A stretch of 64,000 nt of DNA from an uncultured virus (IMG/VR IMGVR_UViG_3300025723_000018) (IMGVR_UViG_3300025723_000018); one strand, 5' to 3'; counted from the stretch's first letter, positions 41,583 through 46,227 are shown. Notes: generated by a model from the letters alone, not told the origin. Program-made: numbers and translations.

Positions 41583-42175
41583 TTAGTTAAAGCAAACCAC
41601 GAAGACAATATATACTTGGTGTCTTTAAGTGGAGGATTGCCCCTGTGTGTATGCGTAAACGAACTAGGAAATATAACAACAGTCCCTTGACGAGGAGGAA
41701 TTCTCACACTTTGATGAATGAATTCTGTTTCGCCACCGTCATTGATGTCGTTCAAATAGATAATAATACTTAAAAGTCGATTGGCTTCTTGTATACTGTT
41801 TTGTTCATGATGCCACATATGATAACCTTGACCAGGTTTTGTACGCTGTATCTTAAATGGCAATATTTGTAAATTTTTAGCAAGATGACTAACACCATTT
41901 ACCGTGTCTGCATACATGGCAATACATTTAGTTACCGCTTGTATTGCAGGACCAGCTAACTGTCCATTAGTCAACATTCGATTAGTGTCTAGTTCTTCTC
42001 CTAGATAGTATTGTTGATCGTCCTTGGCACTGATAGGAACTTGGTCTACTTCTTGTCTGTTAATAGTTAAATCGTAACCATTTAAATATTCAAAGTAAGA
42101 ACAAACTTTATTACAATACTCTTTTGATAGCTCATTAGGAAAAACTCCAATTAAATTTTCTATAGTCGATGTCAT
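41579..42175 (-). CDS. 2OG-Fe(II) oxygenase (prolyl-hydroxylase-like)
   Basis: GYHMWHHE, IYLND...GGETEF, IFPSSFTHTHRGNPP, KY. Confidence 0.87.
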   Translation of the reverse strand: MTSTIENLIGVFPNELSKEYCNKVCSYFEYLNGYDLTINRQEVDQVPISAKDDQQYYLGEELDTNRMLTNGQLAGPAIQAVTKCIAMYADTVNGVSHLAKNLQILPFKIQRTKPGQGYHMWHHEQNSIQEANRLLSIIIYLNDINDGGETEFIHQSVRIPPRQGTVVIFPSSFTHTHRGNPPLKDTKYILSSWFALTK

Positions 42176-42789
42176 TCGTTATCCTCGTAATGCGAACTAA
42201 CGCTATTTTTTCCAAGATTACGAACATTAAAATTATAAGCAACACTGATTCGTTCGTCGTCAGTTAAATTATTAGGCGTAGTACCATGTATTGTACTACT
42301 TCTAAACACAATACACAACCCCTCTTCCGGATCTATGCAAGTTTGGGTACTATTATCCACAGTTGGCCCAGCATGATCCGGATCAATTGAATGCATTTGA
42401 GGGCATGGATGCATAAACATCAGTTGTCCACTACCTTTTGGTGCTCGGGGATAGTATACAGCACTGATGAAACTGTTTGAATGGCCATGTGGAGGATGAG
42501 TAGTAGCTGTGGCTGTACTAATGTTGGCCCAACTATCCGCAATATACAGCTCATTAAACTCTATATCGTATCCACATTCTTTTACAAAATCAAATACAGC
42601 ACTTTTTACAAAATAATTTACTTTTTCAAATTCTTTAAATTTATGAACACCTGTTTTAGTTTGAAAAAAGTTAGAGCTACTAGTTAATAATTTGTCTTTG
42701 ACAACTTCTTTAACATCAGCATGTATGGAAAAATCTAGATTATTATAAAACCCTACGGTAGTAGGGAACATACGAACAATTTCTTTCAT
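42172..42789 (-). CDS. Putative 2OG-Fe(II) oxygenase (TIGR02466-like)
   Basis: SWAN, PHGHSNS.ISAVYY, F.S...HG, RISVAYN. Confidence 0.85.
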   Translation of the reverse strand: MKEIVRMFPTTVGFYNNLDFSIHADVKEVVKDKLLTSSSNFFQTKTGVHKFKEFEKVNYFVKSAVFDFVKECGYDIEFNELYIADSWANISTATATTHPPHGHSNSFISAVYYPRAPKGSGQLMFMHPCPQMHSIDPDHAGPTVDNSTQTCIDPEEGLCIVFRSSTIHGTTPNNLTDDERISVAYNFNVRNLGKNSVSSHYEDNE

Positions 42790-43235
42790 ATCAACTCCAC
42801 TAAGTCGAATACAGTTTGAAGTTTTGTACGTATTGTTTTGCTCGAAAAGCTATTACGCAGACCTTGGTGTAAGGGTTTAGGCGCACGGTCGATAGTTGCC
42901 CATGCCCAAGCAATGTGTTCATCACTTAGTTCAGGAACAAATTCTTTTTCTATAACACAGAGATAGGTATGAAAGTTAAACACTTTATCATTTGATACAA
43001 ATGTTTCTAACGGAATTGTTTTTAAGATTTTTGGTATTGTACCAATTTCCTCAGCAATTTCTCGTTGTAAGCCCTGCCATGGAGTTTCGCCAGTAATATT
43101 TGTACCACCAACTAAGCCCCAAGTTCCTTCATGCTTGCCATGTGCTTTTTGTAACAGTAAGAATCTTCGTGTAGATTTGGCGTAGAACAATGCTCCGCTA
43201 CAAACTATCGATTCTTTTACAAGACTAGACTCCAT
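42786..43235 (-). CDS. Nudix hydrolase
   Basis: Nudix box GGTNITGETPWQGLQREIAEEIG (GX5EX7REUXEEXG). Confidence 0.9.
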   Translation of the reverse strand: MESSLVKESIVCSGALFYAKSTRRFLLLQKAHGKHEGTWGLVGGTNITGETPWQGLQREIAEEIGTIPKILKTIPLETFVSNDKVFNFHTYLCVIEKEFVPELSDEHIAWAWATIDRAPKPLHQGLRNSFSSKTIRTKLQTVFDLVELI

Positions 43236-44722
43236 TGACCTGATGTATATACACCCTCAAAACTCTTTGCCCAGGAAACTCCGTTCCACAGGTATTGTAC
43301 TCCAGTGTATATATTCGTTTGCCACACTAAGGTGTCTTTGTCTTGGTTTGCGTGGAAAACTACAGTCCATGTTTCCCCTGTCCACTCGATGATGTCGTTT
43401 ACTTCTGCTACGAAATCATGTCCATAGATGTCCTGCCATGCACTAGCACCTTTGCCTGGTGCATTGTGTGTACTACCTATTTCGTCAATTATCAAGTATC
43501 GTGTGCCCACAGCAATAGGCTGATCTGTATCTTGTTTTTGAGGACGTTTTGGATTAAATGATTGTGGATTTATAATAGCATCAAATGTGCCAGGACTATT
43601 AGGTCTATAGCAATGTGATAAATCGTAACCTAATTCGTGATCTAGTAAACCCGCACTATCAATTCCTGTGTTAGATGTAAGTGTATCAGGATTCCATTGA
43701 ACATGCATGATTGTATAGTTCAACGGATCGATAGCCACAGTACCTACAATTTGACTACCATTTGCTTGTGTTAAAAATAGTCTACTTGAACCTGCAACAT
43801 ATTTTCCAGGGTATTGTTGCATAATGGCCATCCAGTCTACTGGTGTGCCTTGACGTTCTGGAATATCTAATGTAGGCTCCAATGGAACTGTACTTTCGTG
43901 TGGCTCTAATAAAATAGCTTGATTGTTGTATACTTCTAATTTATAACCAGTAATACTGATAGTCAATTCGTCAAATTGATTTTGAAAAGTTGTAGTCGAT
44001 CCTAATGGGTCGCTTGATGAACCTAACCCTTCAATATAAGTTCCGCTATTAACAGCAGAACCATGCATGTTATTAATAATTTTTGTAATAACACCCAAAT
44101 GTTTGACCTTAACTGGCGGATTAATCCATATAGGAGTATCTAGTGTTATGGTAGCAATGTCAATTGGTGTGTCATTGCCTACAGGAACTGTTCGACTATC
44201 CCAGTTAATATCATTTAAGTTTAATACAGTTAAACTGGTCCAGTCAATATAATTGTCTGTAGTTTGTAGTTCTAGACTAGGATTGAACAAGACTAAAATC
44301 TGTTCAAGTATTTGTAATTTTTGATCTGTATTGGCACTCCAAATATCGCACTTCATAGTAAGTTTGAATGGTGTTGGCATCAAACGTTCAATGGTATAAT
44401 TTTTACCTTGTTCAGGCAAGTATTTGTTAGTGCGAGGATCTATAGCACGTTCGCGAATATTAACTGTATCTACAAAAGTTTGATCAGCTAGTCTATCTCG
44501 ATCCAATGCTAGAGCTGTAACATAGATACTGATACGTGGAACAGAGTTTACAATATTTTCACTGTTTTGTCTAATAATGCTAGCTACTTGACGTTCAGCA
44601 TCTCCATACATTACAGGTATACGATGTAAACTACCGTCACCGTATTTTACCACAAAATTACTAAACGCACGAATAGTCTGCGTAATATATCGTCTGATTT
44701 GCGCATCGTAGAAGAATTGTAT
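43217..44722 (-). CDS. T4 gp15-like tail terminator/sheath stabiliser with C-terminal extension; start extended to a non-canonical AUA
   Basis: IPVMYGD, VPRIS, ERLMPTPF.L, DQKLQILEQILVLFNP; the frame stays open upstream of the track's GTG (44653) through QFFYDAQIRRYITQTIRAFSNF to ATA at 44722-44720; next to gp14/gp13-like genes. Confidence 0.72.
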   Translation of the reverse strand: MQFFYDAQIRRYITQTIRAFSNFVVKYGDGSLHRIPVMYGDAERQVASIIRQNSENIVNSVPRISIYVTALALDRDRLADQTFVDTVNIRERAIDPRTNKYLPEQGKNYTIERLMPTPFKLTMKCDIWSANTDQKLQILEQILVLFNPSLELQTTDNYIDWTSLTVLNLNDINWDSRTVPVGNDTPIDIATITLDTPIWINPPVKVKHLGVITKIINNMHGSAVNSGTYIEGLGSSSDPLGSTTTFQNQFDELTISITGYKLEVYNNQAILLEPHESTVPLEPTLDIPERQGTPVDWMAIMQQYPGKYVAGSSRLFLTQANGSQIVGTVAIDPLNYTIMHVQWNPDTLTSNTGIDSAGLLDHELGYDLSHCYRPNSPGTFDAIINPQSFNPKRPQKQDTDQPIAVGTRYLIIDEIGSTHNAPGKGASAWQDIYGHDFVAEVNDIIEWTGETWTVVFHANQDKDTLVWQTNIYTGVQYLWNGVSWAKSFEGVYTSGQWSLVL

Positions 44723-44737
44723 AATAGTACAACGGCG

Positions 44738-44773
44738 TTAAACCGAAGCCTCCTTGTTTATATAGATGTGCAT
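44738..44773 (-). other. 11-codon mini-ORF MHIYINKEASV*, coupled to the gp14-like stop and in frame with the gp15-like gene
   Basis: TAATG overlap at 44775-44771; TAA at 44740-44738; contains AAGGAGG and a C(UUCG)G hairpin. Confidence 0.55.
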
Positions 44774-46227
44774 TATAAATCCGCCTTTGGTCTAAGCACT
44801 TTGCTGATGCTTTGTCTTTGTTCTTCTCTATCGTTGTATAAGGTAATAGTCCATTGTCCAGCGTAAGGAATTGTCTGTTGTTCACCGCCAATTACAGGTA
44901 AATTAATTCTTAACAACAATGGACTTGATGGAGTTTTTCTATAAGTTGTAATTAAGTTTGGATAATCACTGACAGCATAATCAATTAGTATGTTGTCTAG
45001 TTTTAAAACTACATAAATTCCCACTGGAGCAGATGGTAAAGTTGTACTGATAAGACTAACTCCTGCATCAATTTGATCTTGTGTAAATGTTGCAAATGTT
45101 GTGGCAATTGCATCTGAATAAGTCCAAAGATTATTGTTGATAAATCCAGTTTTAAGTGTGCTACGAGTATCAGTTTGTGTCATAGTCATGCGTACACTAT
45201 CTTCTACAGCTACCCATCCGCCTGTGCCAGAATCAAATCTAAACAATCTGTTAGGTAAGAAATCTACACGCAAGAAAAAGTCATTGTTAGCTGGCGCCGC
45301 TGGAAAATTAACACCAAATCCAAACGCATATCCGTTAACTGGAAAACCATCTCCAACCAAGTATCCTGTATAACCTGTACGCAATGGTACACCGTACGTA
45401 CCACTGGCAAGTTGTCCTGCATTGCTAGCATTGACAGTTTCATCATCTGCGGCCTGTAGTGTAGTTTGCCCGCCAGTAGCACTGGCCGCAAGAGTATAAA
45501 ATTGACGAGTTTCATAACCACTCTTAGGAGCATCTGCTTCAGCTTGGGCAACAACTTGATTGTTAATTTCAATTTCTTTATTATATGTACTGAGCAAATC
45601 TTTAAGAGTAGTTCCTGCAACTGGATCTCCATTGGCATCCAAGGCTTGCTGATTAAAGATTTGTGCAAATTGCTGACTATCTGTAATTCGTTTAAGTTTT
45701 AATCTGTACAAATGTGGATACCAAGTTACGCTAAATCCTTCGCTAGCACGGCCTACATCTTCGATTACATAATAACGTGGTAAACTAAAGTCAAAATCGT
45801 TAAGAGCAAAATCGTCACGCAAATGCGGAAGTTCTATAACGTCCCCACTGATAGGTTTGCGCCCAATATACTTGATAAAATCGTTAATGTGTATGGTCAT
45901 GTACAGGGTATCGTTGTCAATAAACAGGCCAAATTGGCTCAAATTAAAATCAATATTTTGTACATTATAAAGCCCGCGAATTCTGTAGATTTCCGAGTCG
46001 TATTTTCTGTCACGATTTTCTAAAAATAGCAAATCTTGTATGTTTGTTACTGCTGTATTAGCATAATTAGGCTGATCAGCTGTAGCATTAGCTGGGTCTG
46101 TACCAGCACCTAAGTATTTGTGCAGATAGACATCGGTTCCGCCAGCTTGAAACATCTCGCTGGCTTGGCGGTCAATGAACTTGTAGTCATTGCCCTTTTC
46201 TGGTTTATAAAGTGATAAGCGTGGCAT
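44773..46227 (-). CDS. T4 gp14-like neck/head-closure protein (extended)
   Basis: IQDLLFLENRDRKY, LSQFGLF, GDVIELPHL, WYPHL.R.K; divergent from the gp13-like gene. Confidence 0.7.
   Translation of the reverse strand: MPRLSLYKPEKGNDYKFIDRQASEMFQAGGTDVYLHKYLGAGTDPANATADQPNYANTAVTNIQDLLFLENRDRKYDSEIYRIRGLYNVQNIDFNLSQFGLFIDNDTLYMTIHINDFIKYIGRKPISGDVIELPHLRDDFALNDFDFSLPRYYVIEDVGRASEGFSVTWYPHLYRLKLKRITDSQQFAQIFNQQALDANGDPVAGTTLKDLLSTYNKEIEINNQVVAQAEADAPKSGYETRQFYTLAASATGGQTTLQAADDETVNASNAGQLASGTYGVPLRTGYTGYLVGDGFPVNGYAFGFGVNFPAAPANNDFFLRVDFLPNRLFRFDSGTGGWVAVEDSVRMTMTQTDTRSTLKTGFINNNLWTYSDAIATTFATFTQDQIDAGVSLISTTLPSAPVGIYVVLKLDNILIDYAVSDYPNLITTYRKTPSSPLLLRINLPVIGGEQQTIPYAGQWTITLYNDREEQRQSISKVLRPKADL

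What the first reader, a model, noticed from the sequence alone, without database searches (positions are those of the whole stretch)
44717..44775. gp15-like tail terminator lacks an in-frame AUG: a 51-nt structured segment with an in-frame UAA suggests AUA initiation from a split RBS, or ribosomal bypass/readthrough
Seen on the - strand: the gp14-like stop overlaps an AUG (UAAUG), followed by AUG CAC AUC UAU AUA AAC AAG GAG GCU UCG GUU UAA CGC CGU UGU ACU AUU AUA CAA UUC UUC UAC GAU. This frame continues into the gp15-like gene as QFFYDAQIRRYITQ. Removing exactly 51 nt after the AUG gives M-QFFYD, which is how I recall homologues starting (unverified). An AUA sits exactly where that Met would be. 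A perfect SD, AAGGAGG (44755-44749), lies 26 nt upstream of the AUA. A 19-nt imperfect hairpin CUUCGGU-UUAAC-GCCGUUG would shorten the effective spacing to about 7 nt. A competing fold, ACAA-GG-AGGC(UUCG)GUUU...CC-G-UUGU, buries the SD. Established knowledge: T4 genes 25 and 38 use hairpin-split RBSs, and T4 gene 60 bypasses 50 nt using a stop codon within a UUCG hairpin. Inference: this is a uORF-controlled RNA switch or recoding element that limits a low-copy tail-completion protein.
Basis: partly seen in the sequence, partly recalled or inferred. Interest (0 to 1): 0.88.

Follow-up and report, generated by a model that had tools for sequence, protein, structure and literature searches.

The report
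Nuclease scar gives gp15 AUA start
A selfish DNA-cutting gene once landed between the start codon and second codon of an essential phage tail gene, and its leftover 51 bases, a strong ribosome-binding site plus a small hairpin, now most likely restart that gene at the rare start codon AUA.

Summary
The gp15-like gene has no in-frame ATG, GTG or TTG near its conserved N-terminus. ATA (44722-44720) sits where relatives have ATG, and exactly 51 nt separate it from the TAATG junction. It is not an error: 10 of 10 same-phage contigs carry it.

The "uORF" MHIYINKEASV is a deletion remnant of a GIY-YIG homing endonuclease gene inserted in frame after the gp15 ATG. Relatives hold the full 169-188 aa gene or other remnants.

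The cassette's 3' end is kept in all 45 distinct variants: GGAGG, a hairpin supported by covariation, and a fixed 10-nt A/U-rich tail. The tail ends in ATA, ATC or ATT in 27 of 31 distinct tails and never in ATG, GTG or TTG.

Presence is patchy on the gp15 tree, with co-conversion tracts.

Best reading: AUA initiation from a hairpin-bridged Shine-Dalgarno site, fed by termination-reinitiation. Bypass, readthrough and the UUCG fold are not supported.

One tail type in relatives (ACTAAATCG) has no near-cognate start codon and remains unexplained.

This scan reached the same reading earlier on other genomes (e1-5660009, e1-5407031).

The parts
44773..46227 (-). Its stop TAA is at 44775-44773.
   Evidence: ORF list. 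phrog_11591 'virion structural protein', E 2.9e-89. No Pfam hit. The gp14 label was not verified.
44771..44775 (-). TAATG stop/start overlap. In insert-free relatives this ATG is the gp15 start codon. Here it starts the remnant ORF.
   Evidence: Most relatives read ...TAATG followed directly by gp15 codon 2.
44738..44773 (-). 11-codon ORF MHIYINKEASV plus stop. It is an in-frame deletion remnant of a GIY-YIG homing endonuclease gene: MHIY is the N-terminus and (N)KEASV the C-terminus.
   Evidence: Relatives carry full-length 169-188 aa genes with the same ends. L091 matches Pfam GIY-YIG at E 4.7e-5, 24.1 bits against a cutoff of 22.6. L022 holds a 63-aa intermediate ending WLNKEASV.
44749..44755 (-). 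Shine-Dalgarno sequence AAGGAGG, which also encodes the endonuclease's C-terminal K-E-A.
   Evidence: GG[A/G]GG is invariant in all 45 variants. AAGGAGG occurs only 3 times on both strands of the 64-kb window. 20 of 39 long ORFs have an SD core upstream, against 6.6% in random 17-mers.
44729..44749 (-). Hairpin. Pairs are G44749.U44729, C44748-G44730, C44745-G44733, G44744-C44734, G44743-C44735 and U44742.G44736, with a UU/UU internal loop and the loop UUAAC.
   Evidence: MFE -6.3 kcal/mol. RNAalifold gives the same consensus. In one search, 80% of cells are paired against 19-58% when the partners are slid. One C-G pair becomes U-A, U.U becomes U-A or G-C in 8 rows and A-U or G.U in 4 rows, and U.G alternates with U-A. 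The same hairpin is the MFE in most variants.
44738..44740 (-). Stop codon TAA of the remnant ORF, located in the hairpin loop 18 nt before gp15 codon 2.
   Evidence: The loop holds TAA in 43 of 45 variants (TAC in L143 and L144).
44723..44729 (-). 7-nt A/U-rich spacer (TACTATT) between the hairpin and the start codon. It contains a second in-frame near-cognate codon, ATT 44725-44723.
   Evidence: The distance from the hairpin's 3' G to gp15 codon 2 is 10 nt in every variant. Tail composition is A 41%, T 40%.
44720..44722 (-). ATA, the inferred gp15 start codon (read as AUA).
   Evidence: It aligns with the ATG of relatives. This position holds ATA, ATC or ATT in 27 of 31 distinct tails, against 16% expected from composition and 0-15 of 31 at other offsets.
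43217..44722 (-). gp15-like tail terminator / sheath-stabiliser gene (501 codons from ATA, stop included in the coordinates).
   Evidence: Pfam PF16724, E 1.8e-22. phrog_11196 and phrog_227. PDB T4 gp15. In element-bearing lineages the first 12 codons after the Met position have pN/pS 0.18 in this frame, against 1.2 and 1.8 in the other two frames.

Best explanation
A free-standing GIY-YIG homing endonuclease gene inserted, in frame, exactly between the ATG and the second codon of the gp15-like tail gene. It took over the TAATG junction that couples gp15 to the upstream structural gene. In this phage the endonuclease has since been deleted down to 11 codons. The cassette's 3' end remains, and it is now the translation initiation region of gp15. 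It consists of a strong Shine-Dalgarno sequence (AAGGAGG), a 19-21 nt hairpin that shortens the 26-nt SD-to-start distance to about 7 nt, and an A/U-rich spacer ending in the near-cognate start codon AUA (44722-44720). Ribosomes most likely arrive in two ways. Some bind directly to the SD. Others terminate at the UAA in the hairpin loop after translating the remnant ORF, stay on the SD and reinitiate. The weak start codon keeps output of this low-copy tail-completion protein low. Shown here: the origin, mobility and conservation of the element, the hairpin, and that the N-terminal codons are under protein-level selection. Inferred: use of AUA as the start, the reinitiation route, and the reason for a weak start codon.
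For: 1. Origin. The remnant's N- and C-terminal codons match those of the full-length 169-188 aa GIY-YIG genes that relatives carry at this position, and intermediates of 5-63 codons also exist.
2. Mobility. Presence or absence needs at least 15 changes on a tree of 113 unique gp15 proteins, 12 of them forced by starred branches. Near-identical gp15 pairs differ only in the cassette. L122 and L124 show 17 mismatches within 242 nt after the insert and none in the next roughly 2650 nt. L128 and L129 show 6 mismatches within the first 33 nt and the next at 507.
3. Selection on the 3' module. The flanking endonuclease codons diverge, yet GG[A/G]GG, the four core pairs of the hairpin and the 10-nt distance to codon 2 are kept in all 45 distinct variants. 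This includes 6 variants with no upstream ORF left.
4. Hairpin.
5. Start codon. AUH occupies the Met position in 27 of 31 distinct tails, and no tail has ATG, GTG or TTG in frame.
6. The N-terminus is translated. pN/pS is 0.18 for codons 2-13 in element-bearing lineages.
7. Upstream translation matters. About 21 distinct deletion remnants keep an ATG-to-loop-TAA reading frame and 1 does not, where one third would be expected by chance (my own grouping and count).
8. Precedents. T4 genes 38 and 25 use a hairpin to bring SD-AUG spacing from 22 to 5 nt and from 27 to 11 nt (PMC3014915, passages read). AUA, AUC and AUU initiate at roughly 1-2% of AUG in E. coli reporters (bioRxiv 10.1101/063800, passages read). 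The host uses SD sites.
Against: No expression data exist. The hairpin is modest: -6.3 kcal/mol with a z-score of only -0.7 against shuffles. The covariation statistics are moderate: 22 of 500 shuffles reach the observed score, and few pairs change on both sides. Twelve variants in relatives share the tail ACTAAATCG and have no in-frame near-cognate codon, so codon identity cannot be the whole story for the cassette family. ATT at 44725-44723 is an alternative in-frame start in this window. One remnant is frameshifted (L107/L227) and six variants lack an upstream ORF, so termination-reinitiation cannot be obligatory. AUG might instead be avoided for protection against endonuclease cleavage; this was not tested.
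Confidence: 0.7

Rival explanations
1. Recoding from the remnant ORF. Ribosomes that start at ATG 44773 read through or hop over the UAA, in the manner of T4 gene 60, and make gp15 with an N-terminal extension.
For: The remnant ORF, the UAA and gp15 are in one frame in the window and in 40 of 45 variants. A stop codon sits within a stem-loop. The cassette belongs to a homing-endonuclease element, as the gene 60 bypass cassette does (Manning and Atkins preprint, sections 4 and 10 read).
Against: Six variants have no upstream ORF and one has a frameshifted remnant. In five variants the UAA is out of frame with gp15. In lineages with a full-length endonuclease the product would be an endonuclease-gp15 fusion. 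No in-frame codon after the stop matches the take-off codon GUU. The out-of-frame GUU 10 nt downstream leads into the wrong frame. The SD lies 5' of the hairpin rather than 5-7 nt before a landing codon. Upstream peptides are not conserved.
Confidence: 0.04
2. Geometry-defined or otherwise unconventional initiation. The SD-hairpin module places the ribosome at a fixed distance and the codon there need not be near-cognate. AUA in this window is then only one tolerated filler.
For: The distance from the hairpin to codon 2 is fixed in all 45 variants. The tail ACTAAATCG is strictly conserved in 12 variants from diverse gp15 lineages and has TCG at the Met position with AAA before it. The codons just downstream are still under purifying selection; for example, L091 and L103 differ by 3 synonymous and 0 non-synonymous changes in the first 11 codons by my reading of the sequences printed.
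Against: 27 of 31 distinct tails carry AUH at the Met position, far above the 16% expected from composition, so codon identity is selected in most lineages. Three further TCG tails have ATC immediately before (M-S- start), an N-terminus also seen in insert-free relatives. To my knowledge (recalled; no search was made for this) no natural bacterial precedent exists for start-codon-independent initiation.
Confidence: 0.1
3. gp15 is made only from GTG 44653 as an N-terminally truncated protein, or the gene is defective in this phage.
For: GTG 44653 is the first canonical in-frame start.
Against: The 22 codons upstream of it are conserved as protein, with pN/pS 0.18 across 41 distinct sequences of element-bearing lineages. 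No SD precedes the GTG. T4 gp15 aligns from the very N-terminus. The same arrangement persists in at least 45 variants of an essential tail gene.
Confidence: 0.02
4. Sequencing or assembly error, or a private mutation of ATG to ATA.
For: A single A/G difference would restore ATG.
Against: The junction is identical in 10 of 10 same-phage IMG/VR contigs carrying different data-set numbers. Restoring ATG there would still leave the 51-nt insert. Other lineages carry ATA, ATT or ATC at the same place.
Confidence: 0.005

Closest known systems
Split (hairpin-bridged) ribosome binding sites of phage T4 genes 38 and 25 (Nivinskas et al. 1999; Malys and Nivinskas 2009; as summarised in PMC3014915, passages read)
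   Same: The SD and start codon lie more than 20 nt apart. An intervening hairpin brings them to a functional distance (22 to 5 nt and 27 to 11 nt in T4; 26 to about 7 nt here). Both sit at an intercistronic junction of late structural genes and are conserved within a phage group.
   Different: The start codon here is AUA, AUU or AUC and never AUG. The module was brought by, and partly encodes the C-terminus of, a homing endonuclease gene. An upstream ORF's stop codon lies in the hairpin loop. No sequence relationship to the T4 sites was tested or seen.
MobA / gene 60 bypass cassette of T4-like phages (Manning and Atkins, bioRxiv 10.1101/2022.08.31.505936; sections 4 and 10 read)
   Same: A homing-endonuclease mobile element interrupts an essential phage gene and carries a short RNA cassette that keeps the downstream part expressed. 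It inserts repeatedly at one site in related phages. The endonuclease is often decayed or lost while the cassette is kept. The cassette contains a stem-loop, a stop codon, an SD and A/U-rich sequence.
   Different: The solution here is re-initiation, not bypass. There are no matched take-off and landing codons and no conserved nascent peptide. The SD lies 5' of the hairpin. The endonuclease is GIY-YIG rather than HNH. The insertion sits at codon 1/2 of a tail gene, so nothing of the protein is split off.
Free-standing homing endonucleases coupled to the upstream gene by overlapping stop/start codons (for example Aeh1 mobE-nrdA, UAAUGA; Edgell et al. 2010, PMC2988022, passages read)
   Same: The endonuclease ORF starts at an ATG that overlaps the stop of the upstream gene (TAATG). 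Inheritance is intronless-homing-like, with co-conversion of flanks.
   Different: Here that ATG was the host gene's own start codon, so the host gene had to gain a new initiation region from the cassette.
Near-cognate AUH start codons in bacteria (AUU of infC is recalled, not checked here; reporter values from bioRxiv 10.1101/063800, passages read)
   Same: A weak AUA, AUU or AUC start stands behind a good SD and gives low-level expression.
   Different: The weak start is systematic across a mobile cassette family, in tandem (AUU AUA) in this window. No link to IF3 autoregulation is implied.

Membership tests
Hairpin-bridged (split) ribosome binding site, T4 gene 25/38 type | SD and start codon too far apart for direct use (more than about 15 nt) | tested here: met
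   26 nt separate AAGGAGG and ATA. The distance is the same in all variants, plus 1 nt in five of them.
Hairpin-bridged (split) ribosome binding site, T4 gene 25/38 type | Conserved intervening secondary structure that restores 5-11 nt of effective spacing | tested here: met
   The hairpin spans 44748-44730 and leaves 7 nt. It is supported. Statistical support is moderate (22 of 500 shuffles).
Hairpin-bridged (split) ribosome binding site, T4 gene 25/38 type | Canonical AUG start | tested here: not met
   ATA in the window. None of 31 distinct tails has ATG, GTG or TTG in frame.
Hairpin-bridged (split) ribosome binding site, T4 gene 25/38 type | Destabilising the stem lowers translation | not testable with these tools
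   This needs reporter assays.
Gene 60-type translational bypass cassette | Matched take-off and landing codons read by one tRNA | tested here: not met
   The take-off candidate GUU lies before the UAA. The in-frame codons after it (CGC CGU UGU ACU AUU AUA) do not match. The out-of-frame GUU leads into the wrong frame.
Gene 60-type translational bypass cassette | Upstream ORF always present and feeding the bypass, with a conserved nascent peptide | tested here: not met
   Six variants have no upstream ORF and one is frameshifted. Upstream peptides range from 5 to 188 aa.
Gene 60-type translational bypass cassette | SD-like triplet 5-7 nt 5' of the landing codon | tested here: not met
   The tail has no G-rich triplet. 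The SD lies 5' of the hairpin.
Gene 60-type translational bypass cassette | Part of a homing-endonuclease mobile element inserted repeatedly at one site | tested here: met
Free-standing GIY-YIG homing endonuclease cassette | GIY-YIG catalytic domain in the intact copies | tested here: met
   L091's 187-aa ORF matches PF01541 at E 4.7e-5, 24.1 bits against a cutoff of 22.6, and SegE_GIY-YIG at E 6.8e-4, below its cutoff.
Free-standing GIY-YIG homing endonuclease cassette | Sporadic distribution among close relatives, one insertion site, co-conversion of flanks | tested here: met
   At least 15 changes on the gp15 tree. Mismatch clusters lie next to the insert in the L122/L124 and L128/L129 pairs. 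All 68 pattern hits were followed by the gp15 N-terminal coding sequence in the script print-outs.
Free-standing GIY-YIG homing endonuclease cassette | Site-specific cleavage of the insert-free allele | not testable with these tools
   This needs an enzyme assay. In the window only an 11-codon remnant is left, so no activity is expected.
Termination-reinitiation coupling | The upstream ORF's stop overlaps or lies close to the restart site, and the reading frame to that stop is maintained | tested here: met
   TAATG joins the structural gene to the remnant ORF. The remnant's TAA lies 15 nt before ATA. About 21 of about 22 distinct remnants keep the ATG-to-TAA frame (my grouping). It is not universal, because 6 variants lack the ORF.

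The most novel reading that the evidence does not exclude
The cassette is a portable translation-restart module whose SD-hairpin geometry, rather than a start codon, defines where gp15 begins. In its most widespread tail type, ACTAAATCG (seen in relatives, not in this window), initiation occurs with no near-cognate codon in frame. It might do so at UCG or AAA, or by reading AUCG as a four-base start. Selection has kept every variant off AUG to throttle a tail terminator or to stay immune to the endonuclease.
Probability: 0.12. Interest if true: 0.9.

Novelty: new variant of a known kind. Interest (0 to 1): 0.7.

Why it matters
This shows a second way, besides the gene 60 bypass, in which a homing-endonuclease element can sit inside an essential phage gene without killing it: it carries its own translation restart signal. 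After the endonuclease decays, the host gene stays dependent on that scar.

It gives a natural series of 45 variants of a hairpin-bridged ribosome binding site that systematically uses AUA, AUU or AUC starts. That series is ready-made material for testing how SD strength, intervening structure and an upstream stop codon set initiation at weak codons.

It also matters for annotation. Gene callers will truncate this essential tail gene to GTG 44653, or call it broken, in many uncultured freshwater jumbo phages.

Tried and rejected
1. Start at the UUG, AUG or CUG in the hairpin's 3' arm (UUG 44732-44730 in the window) followed by a +1 frameshift. Rejected: that frame meets stop codons after 0-2 codons in many variants and none in others, no common slippery site exists, and those bases are explained by stem pairing.
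2. A hop from GUU before the UAA to the GUU 10 nt downstream. Rejected because it leads into the wrong frame.
3. A hop of tRNA-Tyr from UAC to a Tyr codon in gp15. Rejected because it fits only some variants.
4. A group I intron. Rejected: 51 nt is far too short, the insert's last base is not conserved, and Rfam gives nothing at the element.
5. An alternative genetic code or suppressor tRNA. The window has no tRNA gene, 39 long ORFs read normally under table 11, and both neighbouring genes stop at TAA.
6. A loop-tail pseudoknot (UUUA with UAAA). I set it aside: the 3-nt linker looks too short to span the stem (my judgement; nothing computed) and I saw no covariation between loop and tail in the aligned variants.
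7. A UUCG-tetraloop fold that sequesters the SD. Not conserved.
8. The 701-nt and 44-nt junction queries found no cultured phage with the element.
9. No other copy of the endonuclease or of the element exists in the window.
10. Sequencing runs could not be searched, so no read-level or RNA evidence is available.
11. L149 looked at first like a hairpin-less variant with AGT at the Met position. It more likely has a normal SD plus GTG start and a one-base difference in a T run, so I did not use it as evidence.
Full report
**What is in the window.** On the minus strand a 484-aa virion structural gene (46227-44773) ends in TAA 44775-44773, which overlaps ATG 44773-44771 (phrog_11591). The sequence continues CAC ATC TAT ATA AAC AAG GAG GCT TCG GTT TAA CGC CGT TGT ACT ATT ATA, and then CAA TTC TTC TAC GAT runs on as a 500-codon frame. 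That frame is a gp15 homologue. It matches Pfam T4-gp15_tss at E 1.8e-22 and phrog tail-sheath and sheath-stabiliser families. It matches T4 gp15 chains 4huh and 3j2m at E about 7e-6, with query residue 3 aligned to chain residue 4. The first canonical in-frame start after the TAA is GTG 44653. Its 'gp14-like' label for the upstream gene is unverified.

**What relatives look like.** tblastn places the protein among jumbo phages such as PA5oct, Phosso and Atu_ph07 at about 30% identity. In PA5oct the annotated junction is TAATG AAC TAT TTT TAC GAC. Two protein-guided scans of IMG/VR returned 160 loci. Among 113 unique complete gp15 proteins, 88 have a plain junction, mostly TAATG followed directly by codon 2. 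A few have short spacers, TTG starts or an extra Ser. Another 24 carry an insert and one is odd. All 10 loci with 100% identical gp15 come from contigs with different data-set numbers and show the identical 51 nt with ATA. Sequencing error and private mutation are excluded.

**Origin of the 51 nt.** In L022/L023 (70% gp15 identity) the ORF that starts at the TAATG is 63 codons long. It reads MHIYKFTHIETGRCYVGQT...WLNKEASV and ends at the same TAA. An exact-pattern scan for the conserved core found 32 viral and 36 metagenome contig stretches, every one directly upstream of a gp15 N-terminus. Fourteen distinct variants carry a full-length ORF of 169-188 aa. The L091 ORF passes Pfam's GIY-YIG threshold (E 4.7e-5; 24.1 bits against 22.6). 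The window's MHIYINKEASV therefore keeps the N-terminus (MHIY) and C-terminus (NKEASV) of a GIY-YIG homing endonuclease gene whose middle has been deleted. Other lineages hold different deletions of 5 to 63 codons. The window contains no other copy of this nuclease or of the element.

**Mobility.** On a FastTree of the 113 gp15 proteins, presence or absence of the cassette needs at least 15 changes, 12 of them forced by starred branches. The root is not inferred, so gains and losses cannot be told apart. Near-identical gp15 genes differ only by the cassette:
- L122 against L124 shows 17 mismatches in the first 242 nt after the insert and none in the following roughly 2650 nt. The left flank differs throughout (118 mismatches in 1441 nt).
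- L128 against L129 shows 6 mismatches in the first 33 nt and the next at 507.

These are co-conversion-like tracts, as expected for intronless homing or recombinational transfer.

**The conserved 3' module.** I found 45 distinct variants (one further hit, L215, was set aside because its gp15 frame holds TAG at codon 3). The endonuclease codons just upstream diverge freely in the flanks printed (I did not compute their identity). By contrast, GG[A/G]GG, the following stem-loop and the distance to gp15 codon 2 are constant. The distance is 10 nt after the stem's 3' G. Five variants have one extra base inside the 3' arm. The module persists in six variants where the upstream gene's stop lies 3-11 nt before GGAGG and no endonuclease codons are left. 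It is therefore kept for gp15, not for the nuclease.

**The hairpin.**
- The fold of the core is a hairpin with pairs G.U and C-G, an internal UU/UU loop, then C-G, G-C, G-C and U.G, and the loop UUAAC containing the TAA. Its energy is -6.3 kcal/mol, which by itself is not unusual (z -0.7).
- RNAalifold on 23 variants returns the same helix.
- Pair counts show 80% of cells paired, against 19-58% when the partners are slid.
- The four core C-G/G-C pairs are never broken. One of them covaries from C-G to U-A.
- The U.U positions become U-A (6 rows), G-C (2 rows), A-U (3 rows) or G.U (1 row). U.G alternates with U-A, 12 rows to 11.
- 22 of 500 shuffles reach the observed score, so support is moderate.
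- Metagenome variants add U-A plus U.G in L220. The hairpin is the MFE in most variants, from -3.5 to -10.3 kcal/mol.

**The start codon.**
- Among 31 distinct 10-nt tails, the triplet at the Met position is ATC (10), ATA (9), ATT (8) or TCG (4). That makes 27 of 31 AUH, against 16% expected from tail composition and 0-15 of 31 at other offsets.
- The in-frame triplet before it is AUH in 15 of 31 tails.
- No tail has ATG, GTG or TTG in frame.
- The first 12 codons after this position have pN/pS 0.18 in the gp15 frame across 41 distinct sequences, against 1.2 and 1.8 in the other frames. Translation therefore begins at or just before this position, not at GTG 44653.
- The window's genes use SD sites: 20 of 39 long ORFs have an SD core upstream, against 6.6% in random 17-mers. 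AAGGAGG occurs only three times in 64 kb.
- With the hairpin closed, the SD-to-AUA spacing drops from 26 to about 7 nt. T4 genes 38 and 25 do the same, going from 22 to 5 nt and from 27 to 11 nt (PMC3014915, passages read).
- AUA, AUC and AUU give roughly 1-2% of AUG in one E. coli reporter set and 0.02-3% in others (bioRxiv 10.1101/063800, passages read).

**Role of upstream translation.** Among remnants that still have the TAATG start, about 21 distinct deletion forms keep an open frame from that ATG to the TAA in the loop. One does not (L107/L227). This is my grouping of the rows. One third would be expected by chance. This argues that ribosomes coming from the upstream gene must terminate in the loop. 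That could feed reinitiation, because at termination the SD lies 5 nt behind the P site. It could instead simply keep those ribosomes from running across the gp15 start. It is not obligatory, given the variants without any upstream ORF.

**Rejected readings.** Bypass or readthrough fails on four counts: variants without an upstream ORF, the five out-of-frame variants, the lack of matched take-off and landing codons, and the position of the SD. These are features that Manning and Atkins list for gene 60-type cassettes (preprint sections 4 and 10). The following were also considered and dropped; the reasons are in Tried and rejected:
- a start at the NUG in the 3' arm with a frameshift
- Tyr-codon hops
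- a group I intron
- an altered genetic code
- a loop-tail pseudoknot

Rfam has nothing at the element, and no cultured phage record holds it.

**What remains unexplained.** Twelve variants in relatives, some with full-length nucleases, share the strictly conserved tail ACTAAATCG. They have no near-cognate codon in the gp15 frame, although the codons downstream are under purifying selection. I could not find a consistent frameshift or hop that explains them. Three other TCG tails read ATC TCG, which gives an M-S- start like some insert-free relatives.

**Comparison, novelty and prior notes.** The mechanism works like a T4 gene 25/38 split ribosome binding site. The evolutionary logic is that of the MobA/gene 60 cassette. 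It is not a member of the bypass class, and it departs from the T4 sites in its non-AUG start and its mobile origin. My literature searches (PMC and bioRxiv full text only) found no description of an endonuclease cassette that supplies a non-AUG restart for a host gene. Two earlier notes of this scan on other genomes (e1-5660009, e1-5407031) reached the same reading for ATT/AUU variants. I arrived at it independently before seeing them, and I tested it here on this window.

Noticed in passing
Related loci L091, L103, L085, L124, L126, L135, L153, L154, L202, L212, L213 (junction upstream of gp15): Cassette tail type ACTAAATCG. It is strictly conserved across diverse gp15 lineages, with TCG at the Met position, AAA before it, and no in-frame near-cognate start. 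An ATC lies one base out of frame, directly after a mini-ORF of the form NUG-NAC-UAA.
   Followed up: partly
L149 (about 60 nt upstream of the gp15 match at 1501): A remnant ORF MHIYKFTQKALSRKLGG is followed by TAGGAGGT and a GTG at normal spacing, with no hairpin. gp15 is one base out of frame with that GTG across a run of 7 T, where its sister L150 has 8. This could be a homopolymer assembly error or a slippage site.
   Followed up: no
L215 (1426-nt metagenome contig): An ACTAAATCG-like tail is followed by GAA TAG TTT TAT GAT, which puts an in-frame TAG at gp15 codon 3. This is either an error in a short contig or a real defect. I did not use it as evidence.
   Followed up: no
L228, L200, L199 (tails AAATGATATT, AAATGCTATT, TAATGATATT): An out-of-frame ATG lies 2-3 nt after the hairpin and opens a roughly 10-codon ORF across the gp15 start, in lineages that still carry full-length endonucleases.
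   Followed up: no
window 44704-44719 (-): gp15 codons 2-6 read CAA TTC TTC TAC GAT in three cassette-bearing lineages (the window group, L014 and L022), while their insert-free relatives read CAA/GAA CAT TTT TAT GAC. This pattern of shared synonymous changes next to the insert could reflect co-conversion or target-site immunity.
   Followed up: partly
window 42789-43235 (-) and 42175-42789 (-): Directly downstream of gp15 lie a NUDIX hydrolase gene (PF00293, E 4.9e-16) and a 2OG-Fe(II) oxygenase gene (PF13759, E 1.3e-18). The gp15-NUDIX order is shared with PA5oct.
   Followed up: partly
window 43220-44722 (-): This gp15 homologue has 501 residues, against 261-272 for the T4 gp15 chains in the PDB. 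The T4-like part covers only about the first 230 residues, so an extra C-terminal half of unknown function is present.
   Followed up: no
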